Assembly: GCA_000830275.1 (NCBI GenBank)
Contig: CP010424.1
Coordinates: forward strand, 330,001 to 362,000
DNA length: 32,000 nt
Direction of reading: 5' to 3'
Source of the DNA: an archaeon GW2011_AR10
GTDB lineage: Archaea; Iainarchaeota; Iainarchaeia; Iainarchaeales; GW2011-AR10
The notes below the pieces were generated by a model that saw only the letters and a list, made by a program, of their open reading frames with translations, was not told where the DNA came from and searched no databases. The translations under genes were made by a program, and so were the position numbers. This document shows positions 20,448 to 23,189 of the stretch, in pieces (position 1 is the stretch's first letter; each line of letters begins with the position of its first letter).

Positions 20448-21071
20448 ATGAAGCTGATACTTGTAAGGCACGGCCAAACAATTTCCAATGCAGAAAAACG
20501 CTATCAGGGCAGGATTGACGCGCCTTTAAGCGAGAAAGGCGAGAGGCAGATAAAGGCGGTTGCAGAAGAACTTAAAAGCGAAAAAATCGATGCAATTTAT
20601 TCAAGCACTATTGGAAGGGCTTTGAAGACTGCAAAAGAGATAGCGAAATTTCATAAGGTTCTAATCGAGGAAAAAAAAGAATTAGGGGAGGTTTCTTATG
20701 GCAAATTTGAAGGGAAAACCATTGCTGAAGTAAAAGCTGCTTTTCCTGGAGAGTACGAGAAGCGGAGGCAAAACACCTACTATCATCGCCCTCCCGGCGG
20801 TGAAACTTTGGTGGAGTTAGAGGAAAGGGTTGCACCGTTAGTAAAAAAAATAATTAGTGACTTTAGTGGAAAAACCGTTGTGGTTGTGGCACACAATAAT
20901 GTGAACAAAATCATCATCAAGCACTTTCTCGGCTACTTGCCTGAAACAGTGTCAGAGTACTTTCAGCCAAATGATTGCATTTACTTTATTCAATGGAAGC
21001 AGGGCAGGGCAGTTTTAACTCACAAATTTCCAGGAAAAAAGGAAAAAAATGGTTTTGTAAAGCTGGAGTGA
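20448..21071 (+). CDS. Histidine phosphatase superfamily protein (dPGM-like)
   Basis: MKLILVRHGQTISN (RHG motif) and a second His in VVVAHNNV. A GTG at 20406 overlapping the DAHPS stop is an alternative start. Substrate unknown. Confidence 0.8.
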   Translation: MKLILVRHGQTISNAEKRYQGRIDAPLSEKGERQIKAVAEELKSEKIDAIYSSTIGRALKTAKEIAKFHKVLIEEKKELGEVSYGKFEGKTIAEVKAAFPGEYEKRRQNTYYHRPPGGETLVELEERVAPLVKKIISDFSGKTVVVVAHNNVNKIIIKHFLGYLPETVSEYFQPNDCIYFIQWKQGRAVLTHKFPGKKEKNGFVKLE

Positions 21072-21117
21072 ATCAAATCCTCTACTTGTTTTCCAACGAT
21101 TTTCCGGCGTACAAAGC

Positions 21118-21125
21118 TTTAAATA
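21118..21125 (+). promoter_or_regulatory. TATA-like box (TTTAAATA) with BRE-like ACAAAG
   Basis: ACAAAGCTTTAAATACTT lies 47 nt after the phosphatase stop. The transcript start would be near 21150. Confidence 0.35.
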
Positions 21126-21222
21126 CTTTATTGGGGGCAATTGTTTAAGTGAGATTGTGAACAGTGAGTGTCTTTGGAACGCGCAGAACTGATTCAAGAA
21201 ATTTGCTTAGTCTCACAAACAC

Positions 21223-21230
21223 TTTAAATT
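21223..21230 (+). promoter_or_regulatory. TATA-like box (TTTAAATT), candidate promoter of the leader/tRNA-Trp/trp unit
   Basis: CAAACACTTTAAATTC. The predicted start is near 21255. This is the last AT-rich promoter-like element before trpE. Confidence 0.4.
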
Positions 21231-21254
21231 CTAATTTTTTCCACTTTTTCTATG

Positions 21255-21491
21255 CAGTTTGTGGTGTTCTAGCTGCCGGGCTGCAAAAAGCTTTAGTAAA
21301 CTGCGGCATCAGTTTAAAGGGTGCGCCATTGAAAACAGTGCACCTTGTAAACGGGGGAATTATTACCGTCCTACCGAAGGTAGGACACGTACAGCTCGTA
21401 AACGGAGCTTTCCGTTTAATGCGAGACCTGAAAGGTCGAGCAAGTGGAATGCAAAGCATTCCACGCCCTGTAAACGGGGGCTTCCGTTTAA
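21255..21491 (+). ncRNA. Unclassified highly structured leader/ncRNA with repeated G-TAAAC(N)G...C(N)GTTTA-A hairpins, directly abutting tRNA-Trp
   Basis: Near-contiguous perfect stems at 21297-21316, 21320-21344, 21368-21386, 21399-21418, 21425-21437, 21444-21464 and 21471-21490. There is no credible ORF: the open frames on both strands come from GC-rich stems. The 5' boundary is inferred from the TATA box only. Confidence 0.4.
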
Positions 21492-21563
21492 GGGGTCGTA
21501 GCATAACTGGCAGTGCGGCCGGCTCCAGACCGGCTGGTTCGGGTTCAACTCCCGCCGACCCCA
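21492..21563 (+). tRNA. tRNA-Trp (anticodon CCA), no intron, CCA not encoded
   Basis: Manual cloverleaf. Acceptor GGGGTCG/CGACCCC is perfect. U8 and A9 are present. D arm is GCAT-AACTGGCA-GTGC with A14, G18, G19 and A21. Anticodon arm is GCCGG-CTCCAGA-CCGGC. Variable region is TGGT. T arm is TCGGG-TTCAACT-CCCGC with one 49:65 mismatch. Discriminator is A73. Confidence 0.9.
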
Positions 21564-21584
21564 CTATTGTTGGAGGGAACTAAT

Positions 21585-23189
21585 TTGAGTCAGGAAAACT
21601 TTGAGGCAGGAAGAATTTATCCCCTCACTAAAACAGCTGATTTCAGCGGTGATGCATTCTACTTTTTTGCAGCCATCTCTGATTACGGGAGAAAAAGGAA
21701 CTGCATTTTTCTTGAGTCAGCTGACGTGATTAGAAAGTACGGTGAGAAAAGCATTGGTGCAACTGAGCCCTGCCTGAAAGTCAGAGGCAGAAAAGAGCTG
21801 TTTGAAATCATTGCACTGAATGAGCTTGGCGAGAGGTTTCTTGCTTTCATCAAGGATGACTTTGGCTTTGCTGATTCTGTAAAGTGCTCAAAAAAAATTA
21901 TTTCCGGGAGGTTAAAGCCTGTAAGAAGGATTGTTTCAGAGGATGAAAGGCTGGAACTGAAAACACATGCTGATGTGCTTAGGGCTGTTGCATTCAAGTT
22001 TAAGCCAACTGAGAAGCCGTTTGTGCCTTACGCAGGCCTTTTTGGCGTCATCAGCTATGACTTCATTGACCAGTTCGAGGATTTGCCTGCAAGCAGGAAG
22101 GATGTCTTAAACGAGCCGGACTATGAGCTTAACTTCTATGACAACCTTTTCCTTTTTGATCATAAGAGAAAAACAGTTACTTTTGTTGCCAACATTCTTG
22201 CGATGAGCAACACAGCGGAGTTCGAGCAGCAGCATGCTGAAAAAATGCTGGAAGAATTTGCTTCAGGGCTGAAAAAGCCCGTGCCAAAGATGAAAAAAGC
22301 CGTGAAGCGAAAATTAAGGCTTTCAACTGACACTTCCAAAAAGGAATTCGTAAAAATTGTAAAAGAATTGAAGGTGCATATTTTGCAGGGGGATGTCTTC
22401 CAGATTGTGCCCAGCAGGACAATTGCAGTTGAATTCAGTGCAGAACCTCTTGACGTTTACAAGAAACTGCGAAACCTTAACCCAAGCCCTTACATGTTTT
22501 ATTTTAACAATTCTGCCGGAATTTTGCTTGGCTCCTCTCCAGAAATGTTTCTGAAGGTAGAGGGAAACGAAGCAAAAAAGGTTGAAATCCGGCCAATTGC
22601 AGGAACTAAGCCACGCGGCTTCAAGGATGGAATAATTGACCCTGACCTTGATTCAAGGTTTGAAGCAGAACTGAAGCTGGATGAGAAGGAGTTGGCAGAG
22701 CACACAATGCTTATTGATCTTGCAAGAAATGATGTTGCAAGGGTTTCAGTGCCTGGCACAAGGCACTGCGACAAGCCTTACCTCATTGAAAAGTACTCGC
22801 ATGTGCAGCACCTTGTAAGCAATGTTTCTGGAGTGATGCGCAATGAATTGGATGCGCTGCATGCTTATCTTGCATCAATGAATATGGGTACTTTGACTGG
22901 TGCACCAAAAGTTGAGGCAATGAAACTGCTTCGCCTGAAAGAGAAAACAAAGAGGGGGTTTTATGGCGGGAGCATTGGCTACTTGACTCCTTCAGGGGAC
23001 TTTGATTCTGCCATTGTCATCAGGAGCATGAGCATTAAGGGCGGCAAGGCCTTTGTCAGGGCTGGCGCAGGAATTGTTTTTGATTCTGTGCCGGAAAAAG
23101 AGTTTGAGGAAACCGAGGGAAAGGCGCGAGCTGCAATTATGGCTCTGGAGCTTGCAAGTGGCGGTAAAAGCGGTGAAGAGAATGACTAA
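21585..23189 (+). CDS. trpE: Anthranilate synthase component I
   Basis: Chorismate-binding core (LRNLNPSPYMFYF, IRPIAGT, LAEHTMLIDLARND, GTLTGAPK, GFYGGSIGY). TTG start at 21585 with a GGAGGG Shine-Dalgarno (21572-21577) 7 nt upstream. The ORF-track start at 21513 lies inside the tRNA. Confidence 0.93.
   Translation: MSQENFEAGRIYPLTKTADFSGDAFYFFAAISDYGRKRNCIFLESADVIRKYGEKSIGATEPCLKVRGRKELFEIIALNELGERFLAFIKDDFGFADSVKCSKKIISGRLKPVRRIVSEDERLELKTHADVLRAVAFKFKPTEKPFVPYAGLFGVISYDFIDQFEDLPASRKDVLNEPDYELNFYDNLFLFDHKRKTVTFVANILAMSNTAEFEQQHAEKMLEEFASGLKKPVPKMKKAVKRKLRLSTDTSKKEFVKIVKELKVHILQGDVFQIVPSRTIAVEFSAEPLDVYKKLRNLNPSPYMFYFNNSAGILLGSSPEMFLKVEGNEAKKVEIRPIAGTKPRGFKDGIIDPDLDSRFEAELKLDEKELAEHTMLIDLARNDVARVSVPGTRHCDKPYLIEKYSHVQHLVSNVSGVMRNELDALHAYLASMNMGTLTGAPKVEAMKLLRLKEKTKRGFYGGSIGYLTPSGDFDSAIVIRSMSIKGGKAFVRAGAGIVFDSVPEKEFEETEGKARAAIMALELASGGKSGEEND

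What the first reader, a model, noticed from the sequence alone, without database searches (positions are those of the whole stretch)
21223..21491. ORF-less 235-nt leader of near-contiguous hairpins with a fourfold repeated G-TAAAC(N)G arm and mutually exclusive pairings
No credible gene lies between the TATA-like box CTTTAAATT (21222-21230) and tRNA position +1. Instead there is a string of perfect stems:
- 21297-21316: TAAACTG/CAGTTTA
- 21320-21344: GGTGC/GCACC
- 21368-21386: GTCCTACC/GGTAGGAC, GAA loop
- 21399-21418: TAAACGGA/TCCGTTTA, GCTT loop
- 21422-21440: GACC/GGTC flanked by tandem G.A/A.G, which is K-turn- or loop-E-like
- 21444-21464: GTGGAATGC/GCATTCCAC, AAA loop
- 21471-21490: TAAACGG/CCGTTTA, ending 1 nt before the tRNA

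The 5' arm G-TAAAC(N)G occurs four times (21296, 21347, 21398, 21470). The second copy has no full partner of its own, but it can pair with the CCGTTTA arm of copy 3 or copy 4. GCAGTTT at 21254-21260 can pair with AAACTGC at 21298-21304, competing with the first hairpin. Such alternative folds are what attenuators and riboswitches use. I could not match the region to RNase P, SRP, box C/D, H/ACA or T-box signatures by eye. It is a candidate novel cis-regulatory RNA or processing scaffold for the tRNA-Trp/trp unit.
Basis: partly seen in the sequence, partly recalled or inferred. Interest (0 to 1): 0.8.

Follow-up and report, generated by a model that had tools for sequence, protein, structure and literature searches.

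The report
Hairpin spacer in frameshift-sensing trp leader
The hairpins are real, but they are a lineage-specific spacer inside a larger, conserved leader of an archaeal tryptophan operon, whose core looks like a tryptophan-sensing +1 ribosomal frameshift site placed upstream of a co-transcribed tRNA-Trp and trpE.

Summary
The window comes from the archaeon GW2011_AR10, a Diapherotrites/Iainarchaeota-like DPANN lineage. The block folds far better than shuffled sequence (z -5.8). It matches no Rfam family.

The hairpin family occurs only in AR10 and one 94% relative whose leader is identical, so covariation cannot be tested. It looks like an in-phase duplication (51, 51 and 72 nt) of the hairpin that abuts the tRNA.

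- a BRE/TATA promoter at 21113-21125;
- a short ORF at 21157-21192 reading ...RGNGAU-NNN-CUU-UGG. This resembles the RF2 site (CUU-UGA-C) and the Ty1 site (CUU-AGG-C), but with a Trp codon in the A site.

In 18 related leaders the +1 frame stays open for 30-563 codons, against 6-17 for the +2 frame. Nine of those 18 +1 ORFs contain no ATG, GTG or TTG at all. The +1 frame ends in W-x-W-stop, at the trpE start, or fused to TrpE. In the window it is the "139-aa ORF". It runs through the hairpins and the tRNA and stops 1 nt before trpE.

Best reading: Trp-tRNA shortage triggers a +1 frameshift, and the hairpins are a translation-sensitive structured spacer. This is unproven.

The parts
21113..21125 (+). 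Conserved archaeal promoter P1: a BRE-like AAAGC followed by the TATA box TTTAAATA (21118-21125).
   Evidence: The same AAAGCTTTAAATA, or NNNNTTTAAATA, is found upstream of the short ORF in L001, L002, L003, L162, L164, L168, L170, L176, L177 and L178. The start codon of the short ORF lies 36-42 nt after the TATA start in most loci.
21157..21192 (+). uORF1, frame 0: GTG AAC AGT GAG TGT CTT TGG AAC GCG CAG AAC TGA, translated as (M)NSECLWNAQN*.
   Evidence: Homologous 9-15 codon ORFs with one invariant Trp codon occur in 17 further loci.
21163..21168 (+). SD-like element AGTGAG (family consensus RGNGAU), lying 3 nt upstream of CUU.
   Evidence: Alignment of 18 sites. The spacing is the same as the AGGGGG-UAU-CUU of prfB (that comparison is from knowledge). 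Pairing with the 16S tail could not be tested, because no 16S gene is in the window.
21172..21178 (+). Candidate +1 shift site CUU UGG A: slippery Leu codon followed by a 'hungry' Trp codon.
   Evidence: CTT TGG is found in 17 of 18 loci, although CTT makes up only 29% of Leu codons in the neighbouring genes.
21173..21583 (+). +1 reading frame downstream of the shift site. It runs 136 codons through the T-tracts, the hairpin block and the tRNA-Trp to TAA 21581-21583.
   Evidence: No stop falls in this frame, against 14 in the +2 frame. It is fully open in only 18 of 20000 shuffles. The +1 frame is open in all 18 loci.
21222..21230 (+). It is a possible internal promoter P2, or simply part of the A/T-rich terminator region.
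   Evidence: 10 of 11 bases match the P1 box (D6). Relatives have a T-run/A-run element at the analogous place but no conserved box.
21235..21249 (+). Oligo-T tracts (T6 at 21235-21240, T5 at 21245-21249). They are candidate archaeal termination or attenuation signals lying inside the +1 ORF.
   Evidence: T5-T7 tracts follow the short ORF in most relatives.
21262..21280 (+). Degenerate copy of 'motif 2' (RTGG-NNC-TGGC, the W-x-W end of the +1 ORF in relatives). Here it is out of register: GTGGTGTTCTAGCTGCC.
21297..21316 (+). Hairpin U1: TAAACTG / CAGTTTA.
   Evidence: I13; -4.1 kcal/mol.
21318..21346 (+). Hairpin of 9 bp with two G.U pairs. It is stable only on the + strand RNA.
   Evidence: -11.6 kcal/mol.
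21347..21354 (+). Orphan 5' arm U2 (GTAAACGG). The minimum-free-energy (MFE) fold pairs it with the 3' arm of U4, closing a 145-nt multi-hairpin domain.
   Evidence: (I14, I15).
21368..21386 (+). Hairpin GTCCTACC / GGTAGGAC with a GAA loop.
   Evidence: I8; -11.4 kcal/mol.
21393..21418 (+). Unit U3, a bistable element. Fold A is TAAACGGA/TCCGTTTA (21399-21418, -8.6 kcal/mol). Fold B is AGCTC[GTAAACG]GAGCT (21393-21409, -6.5 kcal/mol).
21420..21442 (+). Hairpin with a symmetric tandem G.A internal loop: UGC-GA-GACC...GGUC-GA-GCA.
   Evidence: -9.8 kcal/mol. Look-alikes lie at a similar distance from the tRNA in L168/L169 (GC-GA-GCC..GGC-GA-GC and AUC-GA-GCCCC..GGGGC-GAA-GAU), in L170/L171 and in L177.
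21444..21464 (+). Hairpin GTGGAATGC / GCATTCCAC with an AAA loop.
   Evidence: I4; -12.1 kcal/mol.
21463..21491 (+). Unit U4, a bistable element abutting the tRNA. Fold A is TAAACGG/CCGTTTA (21471-21490, -7.4 kcal/mol). Fold B is GCCCT[GTAAACG]GGGGC (21465-21481, -8.6 kcal/mol). ACGCCCU (21463-21469) can also pair with tRNA positions 1-8.
   Evidence: (I2). An AACGG..CCGTT hairpin lies at the same place in L168/L169.
21492..21563 (+). tRNA-Trp (CCA anticodon), intron-less, with no encoded CCA end.
   Evidence: ARAGORN; Rfam 60.4 bits.
21572..21587 (+). trpE ribosome-binding region: SD GGAGGG (21572-77), the stop TAA of the +1 ORF (21581-83), one base, then the trpE start TTG (21585-87).
   Evidence: The 534-aa TrpE product is identical to P0001.
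21585..23189 (+). trpE, the first gene of trpEGD(CF)BA-aroAKBD.
   Evidence: Pfam.

Best explanation
The segment 21223-21491 is the distal part of a roughly 340-nt leader.

**Shown**
- The leader is preceded by a conserved BRE/TATA promoter at 21113-21125.
- It joins a conserved 11-codon ORF (21157-21192) to an embedded tRNA-Trp and to trpE.
- The short ORF carries an RF2/Ty1-type shift site: SD-like RGNGAU, 3 nt, then CUU-UGG.
- The +1 frame behind that site is kept open in every related leader.

**Inferred**
- When charged tRNA-Trp is scarce, the ribosome waits with CUU in the P site and an empty UGG in the A site. It slips +1 onto UUU and keeps translating.
- In the window the +1 frame crosses the oligo-T tracts, all the hairpins and the tRNA, and stops 1 nt before the trpE TTG. 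Frameshifted ribosomes would therefore follow RNA polymerase through the T-tracts (anti-termination), melt the leader, and deliver ribosomes to trpE (termination-reinitiation).
- When Trp is plentiful, the ribosome leaves at TGA 21190-21192. The leader stays naked, the hairpins fold, transcription can stop at the T-tracts, and read-through transcripts are matured into tRNA-Trp.

**The hairpins themselves**
- They are a lineage-specific, repeat-derived structured spacer. They consist of four in-phase copies of the hairpin that abuts the tRNA, plus unrelated perfect stems.
- Their last unit is bistable. It can either sequester or free the 5' strand of the tRNA acceptor stem.
- I take them to be a translation-sensitive insulator or gate between the sensor and the tRNA/trpE. 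This last step is the weakest.
For: **Context**
- The locus is an aromatic supra-operon with tRNA-Trp lying 20 nt upstream of trpE.
- The organism is the archaeon GW2011_AR10. TFIIB and Hef genes are in the window.

**Short ORF**
- 18 loci carry it at a fixed distance from a TTTAAATA box.

**Shift site**
- CTT-TGG occurs in 17 of 18 loci, although CTT makes up 29% of Leu codons in the neighbouring genes.
- The codon before CTT varies (TTA, CTA, TCA, CGA, TGT, TGC).
- RGNGAU lies 3 nt upstream of CTT in all loci.

**+1 frame**
- It is open for 30-563 codons in 18 of 18 loci, against 6-17 for the +2 frame. Per-locus shuffle p values run from 0.0025 to 0.24; my rough Fisher combination of these by hand, which treats the loci as independent, is of the order of 1e-8.
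- It is closed just upstream of the site, often by the TGA inside ATGA or GTGA at the start of the short ORF.
- Nine of the 18 +1 ORFs contain no ATG, GTG or TTG at all.

**Where the +1 ORF ends**
- In W-x-W-(R/P)..stop in L001, L002, L115, L168, L170, L174, L176 and L177. L162, L166 and L178 have variants with two or three Trp codons.
- Overlapping the trpE start in L081 (ATGA) and L004 (TAGTG).
- Fused in frame to TrpE in L006 and L031.
- In the window it stops 1 nt before trpE.

**Negative control**
- Two chance occurrences of the 18-mer in viral contigs have +1 frames of only 4 and 16 codons.

**Window hairpins**
- They are real.
- The repeat spacings of 51, 51 and 72 nt are all multiples of 3, so every TAA of GTAAAC and GTTTAA falls in the one closed frame.
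- Two G.U pairs favour the + strand RNA.
- U3 and U4 each have two near-isoenergetic folds, with three double substitutions between the Fold B stems.
- A leader heptamer pairs with tRNA positions 1-8 in the MFE of the pre-tRNA.
- The same AACGG..CCGTT hairpin abuts the tRNA in L168/L169.

**Literature**
- No paper in the library describes an archaeal trp leader peptide or a Trp-sensing frameshift.
Against: - Everything is computational. There are no transcript ends, ribosome footprints or peptides.
- In the window and six other loci, a GTG lies in the +1 frame two codons before the site (21164 in the window). The +1 ORF there could initiate on its own.
- L004 has CGC-TGG, which is not slippery.
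- L003 and L164 have no Trp codon at the end of the +1 ORF.
- The SD-like pairing is untested. A role for SD-antiSD in archaeal +1 shifting is unknown.
- In L168, L170 and L177 the comparable structured block lies after the +1 stop and is not translated. Translation through the hairpins in AR10 may therefore be an accident of losing the W-x-W stop. I estimate the chance of an open frame at only about 0.001-0.01, and the in-phase repeats inflate that estimate.
- Translating through a tRNA gene that must also be matured is awkward.
- The hairpin family has no covariation data and is absent from relatives, so its function may be nil.
Confidence: 0.4

Rival explanations
1. Internal promoter plus processing scaffold. 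The TATA-like box at 21222 (P2) drives a separate tRNA-Trp/trpE transcript that starts near 21250-21262. The hairpin block is its 5' leader. It acts only in pre-tRNA handling: it protects against exonucleases, keeps the tRNA from mispairing, or times RNase P cleavage through the bistable U4 hairpin.
For: - The box CTTTAAATTCT matches the P1 box at 10 of 11 positions (D6).
- Relatives have a T-run/A-run element 26-38 nt upstream of the conserved RTGG of motif 2, which could be an initiator.
- A hairpin abutting the tRNA, with an extension into the acceptor strand, recurs in L168/L169.
- Structured blocks in L168, L170 and L177 are untranslated.
Against: - The P2 box itself is not conserved. L003 has only a T5 tract there.
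- This reading does not explain why the +1 frame is open from the shift site to motif 2 in all loci and then closes within 1-8 codons.
- It does not explain why the window's +1 frame stays open to the trpE start.
- The hairpin family is absent from most tRNA-carrying relatives.
Confidence: 0.22
2. Neutral, recently expanded palindromic repeat. The block arose by tandem duplication or template switching of the pre-tRNA hairpin and has no function of its own. The open frames and the alternative pairings are side effects of in-phase repeats.
For: - The stems are perfect and the repeat arms near-identical, which suggests a young origin.
- The block is absent in 16 related leaders and undetectable by BLAST or nhmmer.
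- Short-leader relatives lack any excess structure, with z between -0.9 and +0.8.
- Both strands fold equally well.
Against: - The seven further stop triplets in the leader (21225-21430) outside the GTAAAC/GTTTAA repeat arms also avoid the 0 and +1 frames across the block.
- The Fold B stems of U3 and U4 differ by three double substitutions yet both still pair.
- The tandem-GA hairpin and the AACGG/CCGTT hairpin recur at similar distances from the tRNA in lineages with only 64-68% TrpE identity.
Confidence: 0.2
3. One reading: a ligand- or tRNA-sensing riboswitch or attenuator. The repeated G-TAAAC arms would switch between mutually exclusive hairpins in response to Trp, anthranilate or tRNA-Trp.
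For: - The fold is exceptionally stable.
- U3 and U4 are genuinely bistable, at -8.6 vs -6.5 and -7.4 vs -8.6 kcal/mol.
- The location upstream of the trp genes fits.
- Fold B is followed by a U-rich tail.
Against: - There is no Rfam hit, T-box included.
- The element is not conserved in relatives that keep the same operon, tRNA and short ORF.
- There is no conserved single-stranded pocket or junction.
- Cross-pairings are the expected by-product of four copies of one arm.
- Archaeal RNA polymerase terminates at oligo-T without needing hairpins (from knowledge).
Confidence: 0.08
4. DNA-level operators. The three 20-bp palindromes TAAACNG-N6-CNGTTTA would be binding sites for a dimeric transcription factor that blocks elongation into the trp genes.
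For: - The three palindromes have equal length and equal geometry.
- Centre-to-centre spacings of 102 and 72 bp are close to whole helical turns.
- The fold scores are symmetric between strands.
Against: - The sites lie 170-370 bp downstream of the promoter.
- The other four stems have unrelated sequences.
- The G.U pairs work only in + strand RNA.
- In L168/L169 the position and the pairing of the pre-tRNA hairpin are kept, but its arms differ from the window's at one of seven positions each: GAACGG..CCGTTC against TAAACGG..CCGTTTA.
- No regulator gene lies in the window.
Confidence: 0.06
5. An ordinary protein gene: the 139-aa ORF (GTG 21164) or the 80-aa ORF (TTG 21259) encodes a functional small basic protein.
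For: - Both frames are open.
- The repeats are in phase.
- A GTG start exists at 21164.
Against: - Pfam finds nothing.
- No gene is called there in the identical leader of L161.
- The 139-aa frame contains a complete tRNA gene.
- The homologous frames in relatives are 30-70 codons long and conserved only in FG....F.KF.. and W-x-W.
- The GA-hairpin region differs by a 4-nt indel between the window and L168, which breaks any shared frame.
Confidence: 0.03

Closest known systems
prfB (bacterial release factor 2) autoregulatory +1 programmed frameshift: AGGGGG-UAU-CUU-UGA-C
   Same: - Slippery CUU in the P site, slipping onto UUU.
- A slowly decoded A-site codon that starts with UG.
- C as the next base in 11 of 18 loci.
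- A purine-rich SD-like element exactly 3 nt upstream.
- A functional continuation available only in the +1 frame, with no start codon of its own.
- A negative-feedback logic, in which the thing in short supply raises shifting.
   Different: - The A-site codon is the sense codon UGG (Trp), not a stop. The sensed quantity would be charged tRNA-Trp, not a release factor.
- The shift sits in a leader ORF. Except in L006 and L031, where TrpE itself is the +1 product, it is not inside the regulated gene.
- The host is an archaeon.
- Nothing has been tested experimentally.
Ty1 +1 frameshift site CUU-AGG-C in yeast, and 'hungry codon' frameshifting (Gallant and co-workers; reviewed in PMC5009743)
   Same: The heptamer has the form CUU-NGG-C. 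Shifting is driven by the scarcity of the tRNA for the A-site codon. No downstream structure is required.
   Different: In Ty1 the tRNA is constitutively rare and the ratio of products is fixed. Here the scarcity would be conditional, on Trp starvation, and would be used as a regulatory signal.
Leader-peptide transcription attenuation of the E. coli trp operon (trpL)
   Same: - A short ORF with Trp codons lies ahead of trpE.
- Relatives carry two Trp codons close to the stop (W-x-W).
- U/T-rich terminator-like tracts follow.
- Ribosome position would be read out by the transcription or RNA-folding machinery.
   Different: - The tandem Trp codons are in a frame that has no start codon and is reachable only from the first ORF.
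- No conserved 1:2/2:3/3:4 hairpin set exists.
- Archaeal termination uses oligo-T rather than hairpin-plus-U.
- A tRNA-Trp gene is embedded in the leader.
- No leader-peptide attenuation in Archaea turned up in the literature searches.
T-box riboswitch (RF00230) upstream of trp genes in Firmicutes
   Same: It is a structured leader upstream of trp biosynthesis genes and is linked to tRNA-Trp.
   Different: - There is no Rfam hit at E<=10.
- There is no Stem I or specifier loop, no K-turn, and no T-box/antiterminator bulge.
- The tRNA is encoded in cis, not sensed in trans.
tRNA genes co-transcribed with mRNAs (for example the E. coli thrU-tyrU-glyT-thrT-tufB operon; mitochondrial tRNA punctuation)
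   Same: A tRNA is embedded in a polycistronic transcript, so its excision by RNase P or RNase Z necessarily cuts the mRNA.
   Different: Here the tRNA is the cognate of the amino acid made by the downstream operon. It sits between a Trp-codon sensor ORF and trpE. In AR10 it lies inside an open reading frame.
K-turn / L7Ae-binding motif
   Same: GA dinucleotides face each other across a helix (21423-24 and 21438-39).
   Different: The loop is a symmetric 2x2 internal loop (5'-CGAG/5'-CGAG) with no 3-nt bulge. Relatives have 2x2 or 2x3 loops. It is not a K-turn by sequence.

Membership tests
RF2/Ty1-type programmed +1 frameshift site | A slippery P-site codon that can re-pair in the +1 frame (CUU to UUU). 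| tested here: met
   CTT precedes the Trp codon in 17 of 18 loci, against 29% CTT among Leu codons of the neighbouring genes. L004 has CGC.
RF2/Ty1-type programmed +1 frameshift site | A slowly decoded A-site codon. | tested here: inconclusive
   The A-site codon is UGG in 18 of 18 loci. That it becomes slow under Trp limitation follows from known hungry-codon behaviour (PMC5009743), but it was not measured.
RF2/Ty1-type programmed +1 frameshift site | An SD-like stimulator 3 nt upstream of the slippery codon (a prfB feature). | tested here: inconclusive
   RGNGAU ends 3 nt before CTT in all 18 loci. It resembles the GGUGAU part of an extended SD. The 16S 3' tail of these organisms is not in the data, so the pairing is untested.
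RF2/Ty1-type programmed +1 frameshift site | The +1 frame is open downstream, closed upstream, and lacks its own initiation codon. | tested here: met
   The +1 frame runs 30-563 codons, against 6-17 for the +2 frame. A stop lies within 6 codons or fewer upstream in 14 of the 18 loci. Nine of the 18 +1 ORFs contain no ATG, GTG or TTG. Caveat: 7 loci, including the window, have a GTG two codons before the site.
RF2/Ty1-type programmed +1 frameshift site | A trans-frame product is demonstrated. | not testable with these tools
   This needs reporters, ribosome profiling or mass spectrometry.
Leader-peptide (trpL-type) transcription attenuator | A short leader ORF enriched in codons of the regulated amino acid. 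| tested here: met
   There is one Trp codon in uORF1 in all loci. W-x-W, or a variant with two or three Trp codons, lies at the end of the +1 ORF in 11 of 18 loci. In the window the W-x-W is degenerate and out of frame.
Leader-peptide (trpL-type) transcription attenuator | Conserved alternative terminator and antiterminator hairpins overlapping the leader ORF. | tested here: not met
   No hairpin set is shared among the leaders. Short leaders show no excess structure, with z between -0.9 and +0.8. Oligo-T tracts are present in most loci.
T-box riboswitch | Stem I with specifier loop, plus the T-box/antiterminator sequence (Rfam RF00230). | tested here: not met
   cmscan of 20900-21700 at E<=10 lists no T-box. 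Nothing appears at the gathering threshold in the whole window.
K-turn (L7Ae-binding) | A 3-nt bulge followed by tandem sheared G.A pairs between a C stem and an NC stem. | tested here: not met
   21420-21442 is UGC-GA-GACC/GGUC-GA-GCA, a symmetric 2x2 loop with no bulge.
Box C/D or H/ACA guide RNA | Boxes C (RUGAUGA) and D (CUGA), or a pseudouridylation pocket with an ACA box. | tested here: not met
   No box C lies in 21223-21491. The only Rfam C/D matches are chance-level and lie outside the block, at E 3.4 and 8.9.
CRISPR array | Near-identical repeats with a regular period and unique spacers, usually with cas genes. | tested here: not met
   The three 27-nt copies share only 67-81% identity. 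Tandem Repeats Finder reports nothing. No cas genes are in the window.
Dispersed palindromic repeat (REP/MITE-like) | Many copies scattered through the genome. | tested here: inconclusive
   No further copy is found in the 32-kb window or in 187 other loci. The rest of the AR10 genome could not be scanned.

The most novel reading that the evidence does not exclude
DPANN archaea of the Diapherotrites/Iainarchaeota-Woesearchaeota-Nanoarchaeota type may regulate tryptophan synthesis by a programmed +1 ribosomal frameshift at a hungry Trp codon. The site reads SD-like, 3 nt, then CUU-UGG-C.

Under this reading, starvation for charged tRNA-Trp moves ribosomes from a dead-end 9-15 codon ORF into a start-less +1 frame. 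That frame takes one of three forms:
- It is TrpE itself (L006 and L031).
- It ends on the trpE start codon (L004, L081 and the window).
- It ends in a W-x-W checkpoint next to an embedded tRNA-Trp gene.

This would be the first amino-acid-sensing frameshift switch and the first leader-peptide type control in Archaea. In AR10 the same transcript would be either translated through (making TrpE) or folded and cut (making tRNA-Trp). The hairpin block and its bistable last unit would serve as the gate between those two fates.
Probability: 0.4. Interest if true: 0.93.

Novelty: new variant of a known kind. Interest (0 to 1): 0.8.

Why it matters
If the frameshift reading holds, it adds a third logic to the regulation of amino-acid biosynthesis, alongside repressors/riboswitches and stalling-based attenuation. 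In this logic the frame itself is the signal.

- **New to Archaea.** The literature searches here found no leader-peptide control or regulatory +1 frameshift reported for cellular genes in Archaea.
- **Directly testable.** The cassette is about 40 nt long and can be placed in dual-frame reporters.
- **Annotation.** It would explain why some DPANN trpE genes appear N-terminally extended or preceded by odd overlapping ORFs.
- **Resource allocation.** The embedded tRNA-Trp suggests a single-transcript choice between making the tRNA and making the enzymes that supply its amino acid.

For the hairpins alone the lesson is cautionary. Spectacular local structure with 'alternative pairings' can be a young, lineage-specific repeat, while the conserved regulator sits next door and is coded in reading frames.

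Tried and rejected
1. **Known RNA families.** Rfam, at gathering threshold and at E<=10, found only the tRNA.
2. **Box C/D guide for tRNA-Trp Cm34/Um39 moved from the intron to the leader.** CUUUGG pairs with CCAGA of the anticodon loop. But no box C or D lies in register, and the motif is better explained as a codon pair. Dropped.
3. **Leader as a degenerate duplicate of the tRNA.** Smith-Waterman alignment of leader against tRNA is not significant in 9 of 10 loci and marginal in L002 (9 of 300 shuffles). The RTGGNNCTGGC resemblance to tRNA positions 22-33 has an expectation of about 0.75 by my own estimate. Dropped.
4. **'M-A-L-A' ORF starting at motif 2.** The frames relative to the tRNA are inconsistent, so it is not coding beyond the motif.
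5. **Miniature RNase P, SRP, CRISPR or BHB motif.** None fits.
6. **Tandem Repeats Finder.** It reported nothing, because the units are too diverged.
7. **BLAST and nhmmer of the leader against all loci.** Only the promoter and short-ORF part gave weak hits.
8. **A loose regular expression for the GA hairpin.** It returned 592 uninformative hits in GC-rich bacterial loci. The homology of the GA hairpin therefore rests on position and local sequence only.
9. **Viral-contig scans.** The hairpin pattern gave 9 single matches that I judged chance-level. The 18-mer shift cassette gave 2 unrelated matches that served as negative controls.
10. **Leu-Trp avoidance in genes.** This is uninformative, because the sampled genes contain only 17 Trp codons in 11,622.
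11. **Covariation.** It could not be tested, because the only other genome with the hairpins (L161) is identical over 513 nt.


Full report
**1. Where we are**

The window carries an aromatic-amino-acid supra-operon on the + strand:
- transaldolase, chorismate mutase/prephenate dehydratase, split transketolase, DAHP synthase and a His_Phos protein (to 21071);
- then a 420-nt gap;
- then tRNA-Trp (21492-21563);
- then trpE (TTG at 21585), trpG, D, CF, B, A and aroA, K, B, D.

TFIIB and a Hef-type helicase-nuclease lie elsewhere in the window, which marks an archaeon. The TrpE protein is identical to that of 'archaeon GW2011_AR10'. Its closest relatives are named Diapherotrites, Iainarchaeum, Woesearchaeota and Nanoarchaeota, at 58-70% identity. 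After them come Planctomycetes at about 50%.

**2. The observation**

Four GTAAAC copies in 175 nt compare with 19 in the whole 32 kb on both strands. The block 21286-21491 folds with z = -5.8 on the + strand (0 of 200 shuffles as good) and z = -7.2 on the - strand. Single hairpins range from -4.1 to -12.1 kcal/mol. The stem 21318-21346 has two G.U pairs that exist only in + strand RNA.

The listed cross-pairings exist, but they follow from having four copies of one arm. The G.A/A.G element is a symmetric 2x2 internal loop, not a K-turn. Rfam gives only the tRNA.

**3. Is the hairpin block conserved?**

Only one other genome carries it. That is L161, with 94% TrpE identity, and its leader is identical over 513 nt. 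No covariation test is therefore possible.

- In 16 other related leaders the TAAACNG...CNGTTTA hairpin is absent.
- BLAST and nhmmer detect homology only for the promoter and short-ORF part, 21112-21284.
- Excess structure grades with relatedness. z is -4.1 in the window, -2.6 in L168, -2.1 in L170 and L162, and about 0 in the short leaders L001-L003, L164, L174 and L176.
- The four units align as diverged copies of YTNGTAAACGG..CCGTTTAA, spaced 51, 51 and 72 nt apart. The last copy abuts the tRNA.

Two modules do recur elsewhere at comparable distances from the tRNA:
- a hairpin with a GA/GA(A) internal loop. The window has UGC-GA-GACC..GGUC-GA-GCAAG. L168/169 have GC-GA-GCC..GGC-GA-GCAAG and AUC-GA-GCCCC..GGGGC-GAA-GAU. 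L170/171 and L177 have AUC-GA-GCC..GGC-GA(A)-GAU;
- an AACGG..CCGTT hairpin directly before tRNA position 1 in L168/169.

So the block is a lineage-specific expansion of a variable structured spacer. It is not a conserved riboswitch.

**4. What is conserved lies just upstream**

All tRNA-carrying relatives share a BRE/TATA box (AAAGCTTTAAATA; window 21113-21125). A short ORF of 9-15 codons starts 36-42 nt after the TATA start and carries one invariant Trp codon. Several relatives without the tRNA (L004, L006, L031, L081) carry the same short ORF. A TATA-type box upstream of it was recorded only for L006 (TTTAAAAT).

| Locus | Short-ORF peptide |
|---|---|
| window (21157-21192) | (M)NSECLWNAQN* |
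| L001 | MNSGDLLWLH* |
| L002 | MQGDSLWLQ* |
| L162 | MKGDLLWFL* |
| L164 | MARRDLLWSNFQ* |
| L168 | MARRDLLWNKPQF* |
| L170 | MVRRDLLWLFSK* |
| L174 | MMLRRDRLWLLQQ* |
| L176 | MKRRDSLWQLSFGFE* |
| L115 | MQRDLLWLPPRAF* |
| L166 | ..KSECLWHK* |
| L006 | MDSERLWQRKH* |
| L081 | MISDCLWRG* |
| L004 | MKSDCRWQG* |
| L031 | MGSDSLWLSKSCFL* |
| L177 | MVRRDLLWQQSK* |
| L178 | MARRDLLWIQKF* |

**5. The short ORF is conserved at the nucleotide level in a telling way**

The Leu codon before UGG is CTT in 17 of 18 loci, although CTT is only 29% of Leu codons in the neighbouring genes. The codon before it varies freely. RGNGAU ends exactly 3 nt before CTT.

SD-like, 3 nt, CUU-UGG-C has the architecture of two known sites:
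- the RF2 +1 frameshift site, AGGGGG-UAU-CUU-UGA-C (from knowledge);
- the Ty1 site, CUU-AGG-C, where a scarce A-site tRNA drives the shift (PMC5009743).

**6. The +1 frame behaves as a translated frame with no start of its own**

- After the site it is open for 30-563 codons in 18 of 18 loci. The +2 frame closes after 6-17 codons. Per-locus shuffle p values run from 0.0025 to 0.24.
- In most loci it is closed a few codons upstream, often by the TGA inside the ATGA or GTGA of the short ORF's own start.
- Nine of the 18 +1 ORFs contain no ATG, GTG or TTG anywhere.

Its ends are informative:
- W-x-W-(R/P) followed within 1-8 codons by a stop, in L001, L002, L115, L168, L170, L174, L176 and L177. 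L162 has WLWAW, L166 has WHPEW and L178 has W..W. This is the nucleotide motif RTGG-NNC-TGGC that I first saw as an unexplained conserved box.
- A stop overlapping the trpE start, in L081 (ATGA) and L004 (TAGTG).
- Direct in-frame continuation into TrpE, in L006 and L031.

The +1 peptides also share FG.., (D/E)L.S and F.KF..Y-SW.W. Synonymous differences occur between L168, L170, L177 and L178: AAG/AAA, TTT/TTC and TAC/TAT.

Two chance copies of the 18-mer in viral contigs have +1 frames of only 4 and 16 codons.

**7. The window in this light**

Its +1 frame is the '139-aa ORF'. From TTT 21173 it runs 136 codons through the following, in order:
- the T6 and T5 tracts (21235-21249);
- the degenerate, out-of-register motif 2 (21262-21280);
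- every hairpin;
- the whole tRNA;
- the stop TAA at 21581-21583, one base before the trpE TTG.

Counting from the Trp codon at 21175 to the base before the trpE start, stop triplets are distributed 4, 1 and 14 over frames 0, +1 and +2. The single +1 stop is the terminal one. Only 18 of 20000 shuffles keep that frame open. Because the repeat spacings are multiples of three, every TAA of GTAAAC and GTTTAA falls in the one closed frame.

Caveats:
- The in-phase repeats reduce the number of independent events.
- A GTG at 21164 could start this frame directly.
- In L168, L170 and L177 the analogous structured spacer lies behind the +1 stop.

**8. Fine structure next to the tRNA**

U3 and U4 each have two competing folds:

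| Unit | Fold A | Fold B |
|---|---|---|
| U3 | TAAACGGA/TCCGTTTA, -8.6 kcal/mol | AGCUC[GUAAACG]GAGCU, -6.5 kcal/mol |
| U4 | TAAACGG/CCGTTTA, -7.4 kcal/mol | GCCCU[GUAAACG]GGGGC, -8.6 kcal/mol |

The two Fold B stems differ by three double substitutions yet both pair. L168 has UGCUC[ACGAACG]GAGCG at the same place.

In the pre-tRNA (21460-21566) the MFE extends Fold A with ACGCCCU (21463-69) pairing to tRNA positions 1-8, which displaces the acceptor stem. Fold B instead ties up CCCU and frees the tRNA 5' strand. This suggests a gate on tRNA maturation, but it rests on thermodynamic prediction only.

**9. Proposed mechanism, and what is shown**

Shown:
- the conserved promoter;
- the short ORF;
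- the CUU-UGG site with its upstream purine box;
- the start-less open +1 frame and its three kinds of end;
- the oligo-T tracts inside that frame;
- the real but lineage-specific hairpins.

Inferred:
- With low charged tRNA-Trp, the ribosome shifts +1 at the empty UGG and keeps translating.
- It suppresses termination at the T-tracts and either makes TrpE, re-initiates at trpE, or reaches a W-x-W checkpoint beside the tRNA.
- With ample Trp, it terminates early and the leader folds.
- The AR10 hairpins act as a translation-sensitive spacer or gate.

My confidences, taken separately:

| Claim | Confidence |
|---|---|
| The hairpins are real | 0.95 |
| The block is repeat-derived and lineage-specific | 0.85 |
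| The +1 frame is translated | about 0.55 |
| Entry into the +1 frame is by a Trp-dependent frameshift | about 0.45 |
| The hairpins have a gating role | about 0.25 |

**10. Literature**

Full-text searches found no archaeal trp leader peptide, no Trp-sensing frameshift and no report on this locus. The 2016 recoding review lists hungry-codon shifting, Ty1 and a few archaeal cases (viral tail genes, Mg-chelatase) but nothing of this kind.

Noticed in passing
L115:3708-3845 and L166:865-1064: These loci carry intron-containing tRNA-Trp genes upstream of trpE. The introns are about 65 nt in L115 and about 130 nt in L166, inserted after position 37/38. ARAGORN missed both. The introns are themselves strings of perfect hairpins.
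   Followed up: partly
L164:4918-4960, L168:996-1035, L170:2836-2875, L177:1398-1425, L003:3759-3800, L115:3846-3880: A conserved polypyrimidine/polypurine hairpin (CUUUUCUUUCUCUU...AAGAGAAAGGAAAAG) lies directly after the tRNA-Trp 3' end, between the tRNA and trpE. It is absent from the window, where only 20 nt separate the tRNA and trpE.
   Followed up: no
window:21259-21501: Frame 0 is also open across the whole hairpin block, as an 80-codon ORF (TTG start, second codon TGG) that ends inside the tRNA. Both frames 0 and +1 lack stops here, and all 14 stops sit in the +2 frame.
   Followed up: partly
window:21113-21121 and 21287-21295: The 9-mer AAAGCTTTA, the BRE and start of the TATA box of the conserved promoter, is repeated exactly at the 5' edge of the hairpin block.
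   Followed up: no
window:13847-31720 and the trp genes of L162-L178: Trp codons are extremely rare in the aro/trp enzymes sampled, at 17 of 11,622 codons. That fits enzymes that must be made during Trp starvation.
   Followed up: partly
L168:905-925 vs L169:815-835: Two contigs encode the same TrpE but differ by three SNPs, all inside the hairpin that abuts the tRNA. One SNP is at tRNA position 1 (T against G). The changes switch the predicted MFE between Fold B (L168) and an extended Fold A (L169).
   Followed up: partly
window:19396-31720; L009-L039: The trp/aro genes are bacterial in type: SKI-type shikimate kinase, DHQ synthase, and DAHP synthase with an FXD domain. The closest non-DPANN TrpE sequences are from Planctomycetes at about 50% identity. 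This suggests horizontal acquisition. The planctomycete loci show no short ORF of this kind.
   Followed up: partly
L162:9582-10385: A Lactamase_B (metallo-beta-lactamase fold) gene is inserted between trpCF and trpB in this relative's trp operon.
   Followed up: no
L115:3572-3625: Directly after the W-S-W-R-G-P stop of the +1 ORF there is a GC-rich stem followed by T7 (GGCAAAGGCGTTTTTTTATTTT). This is the clearest hairpin-plus-T-run terminator-like element in any of the leaders.
   Followed up: no
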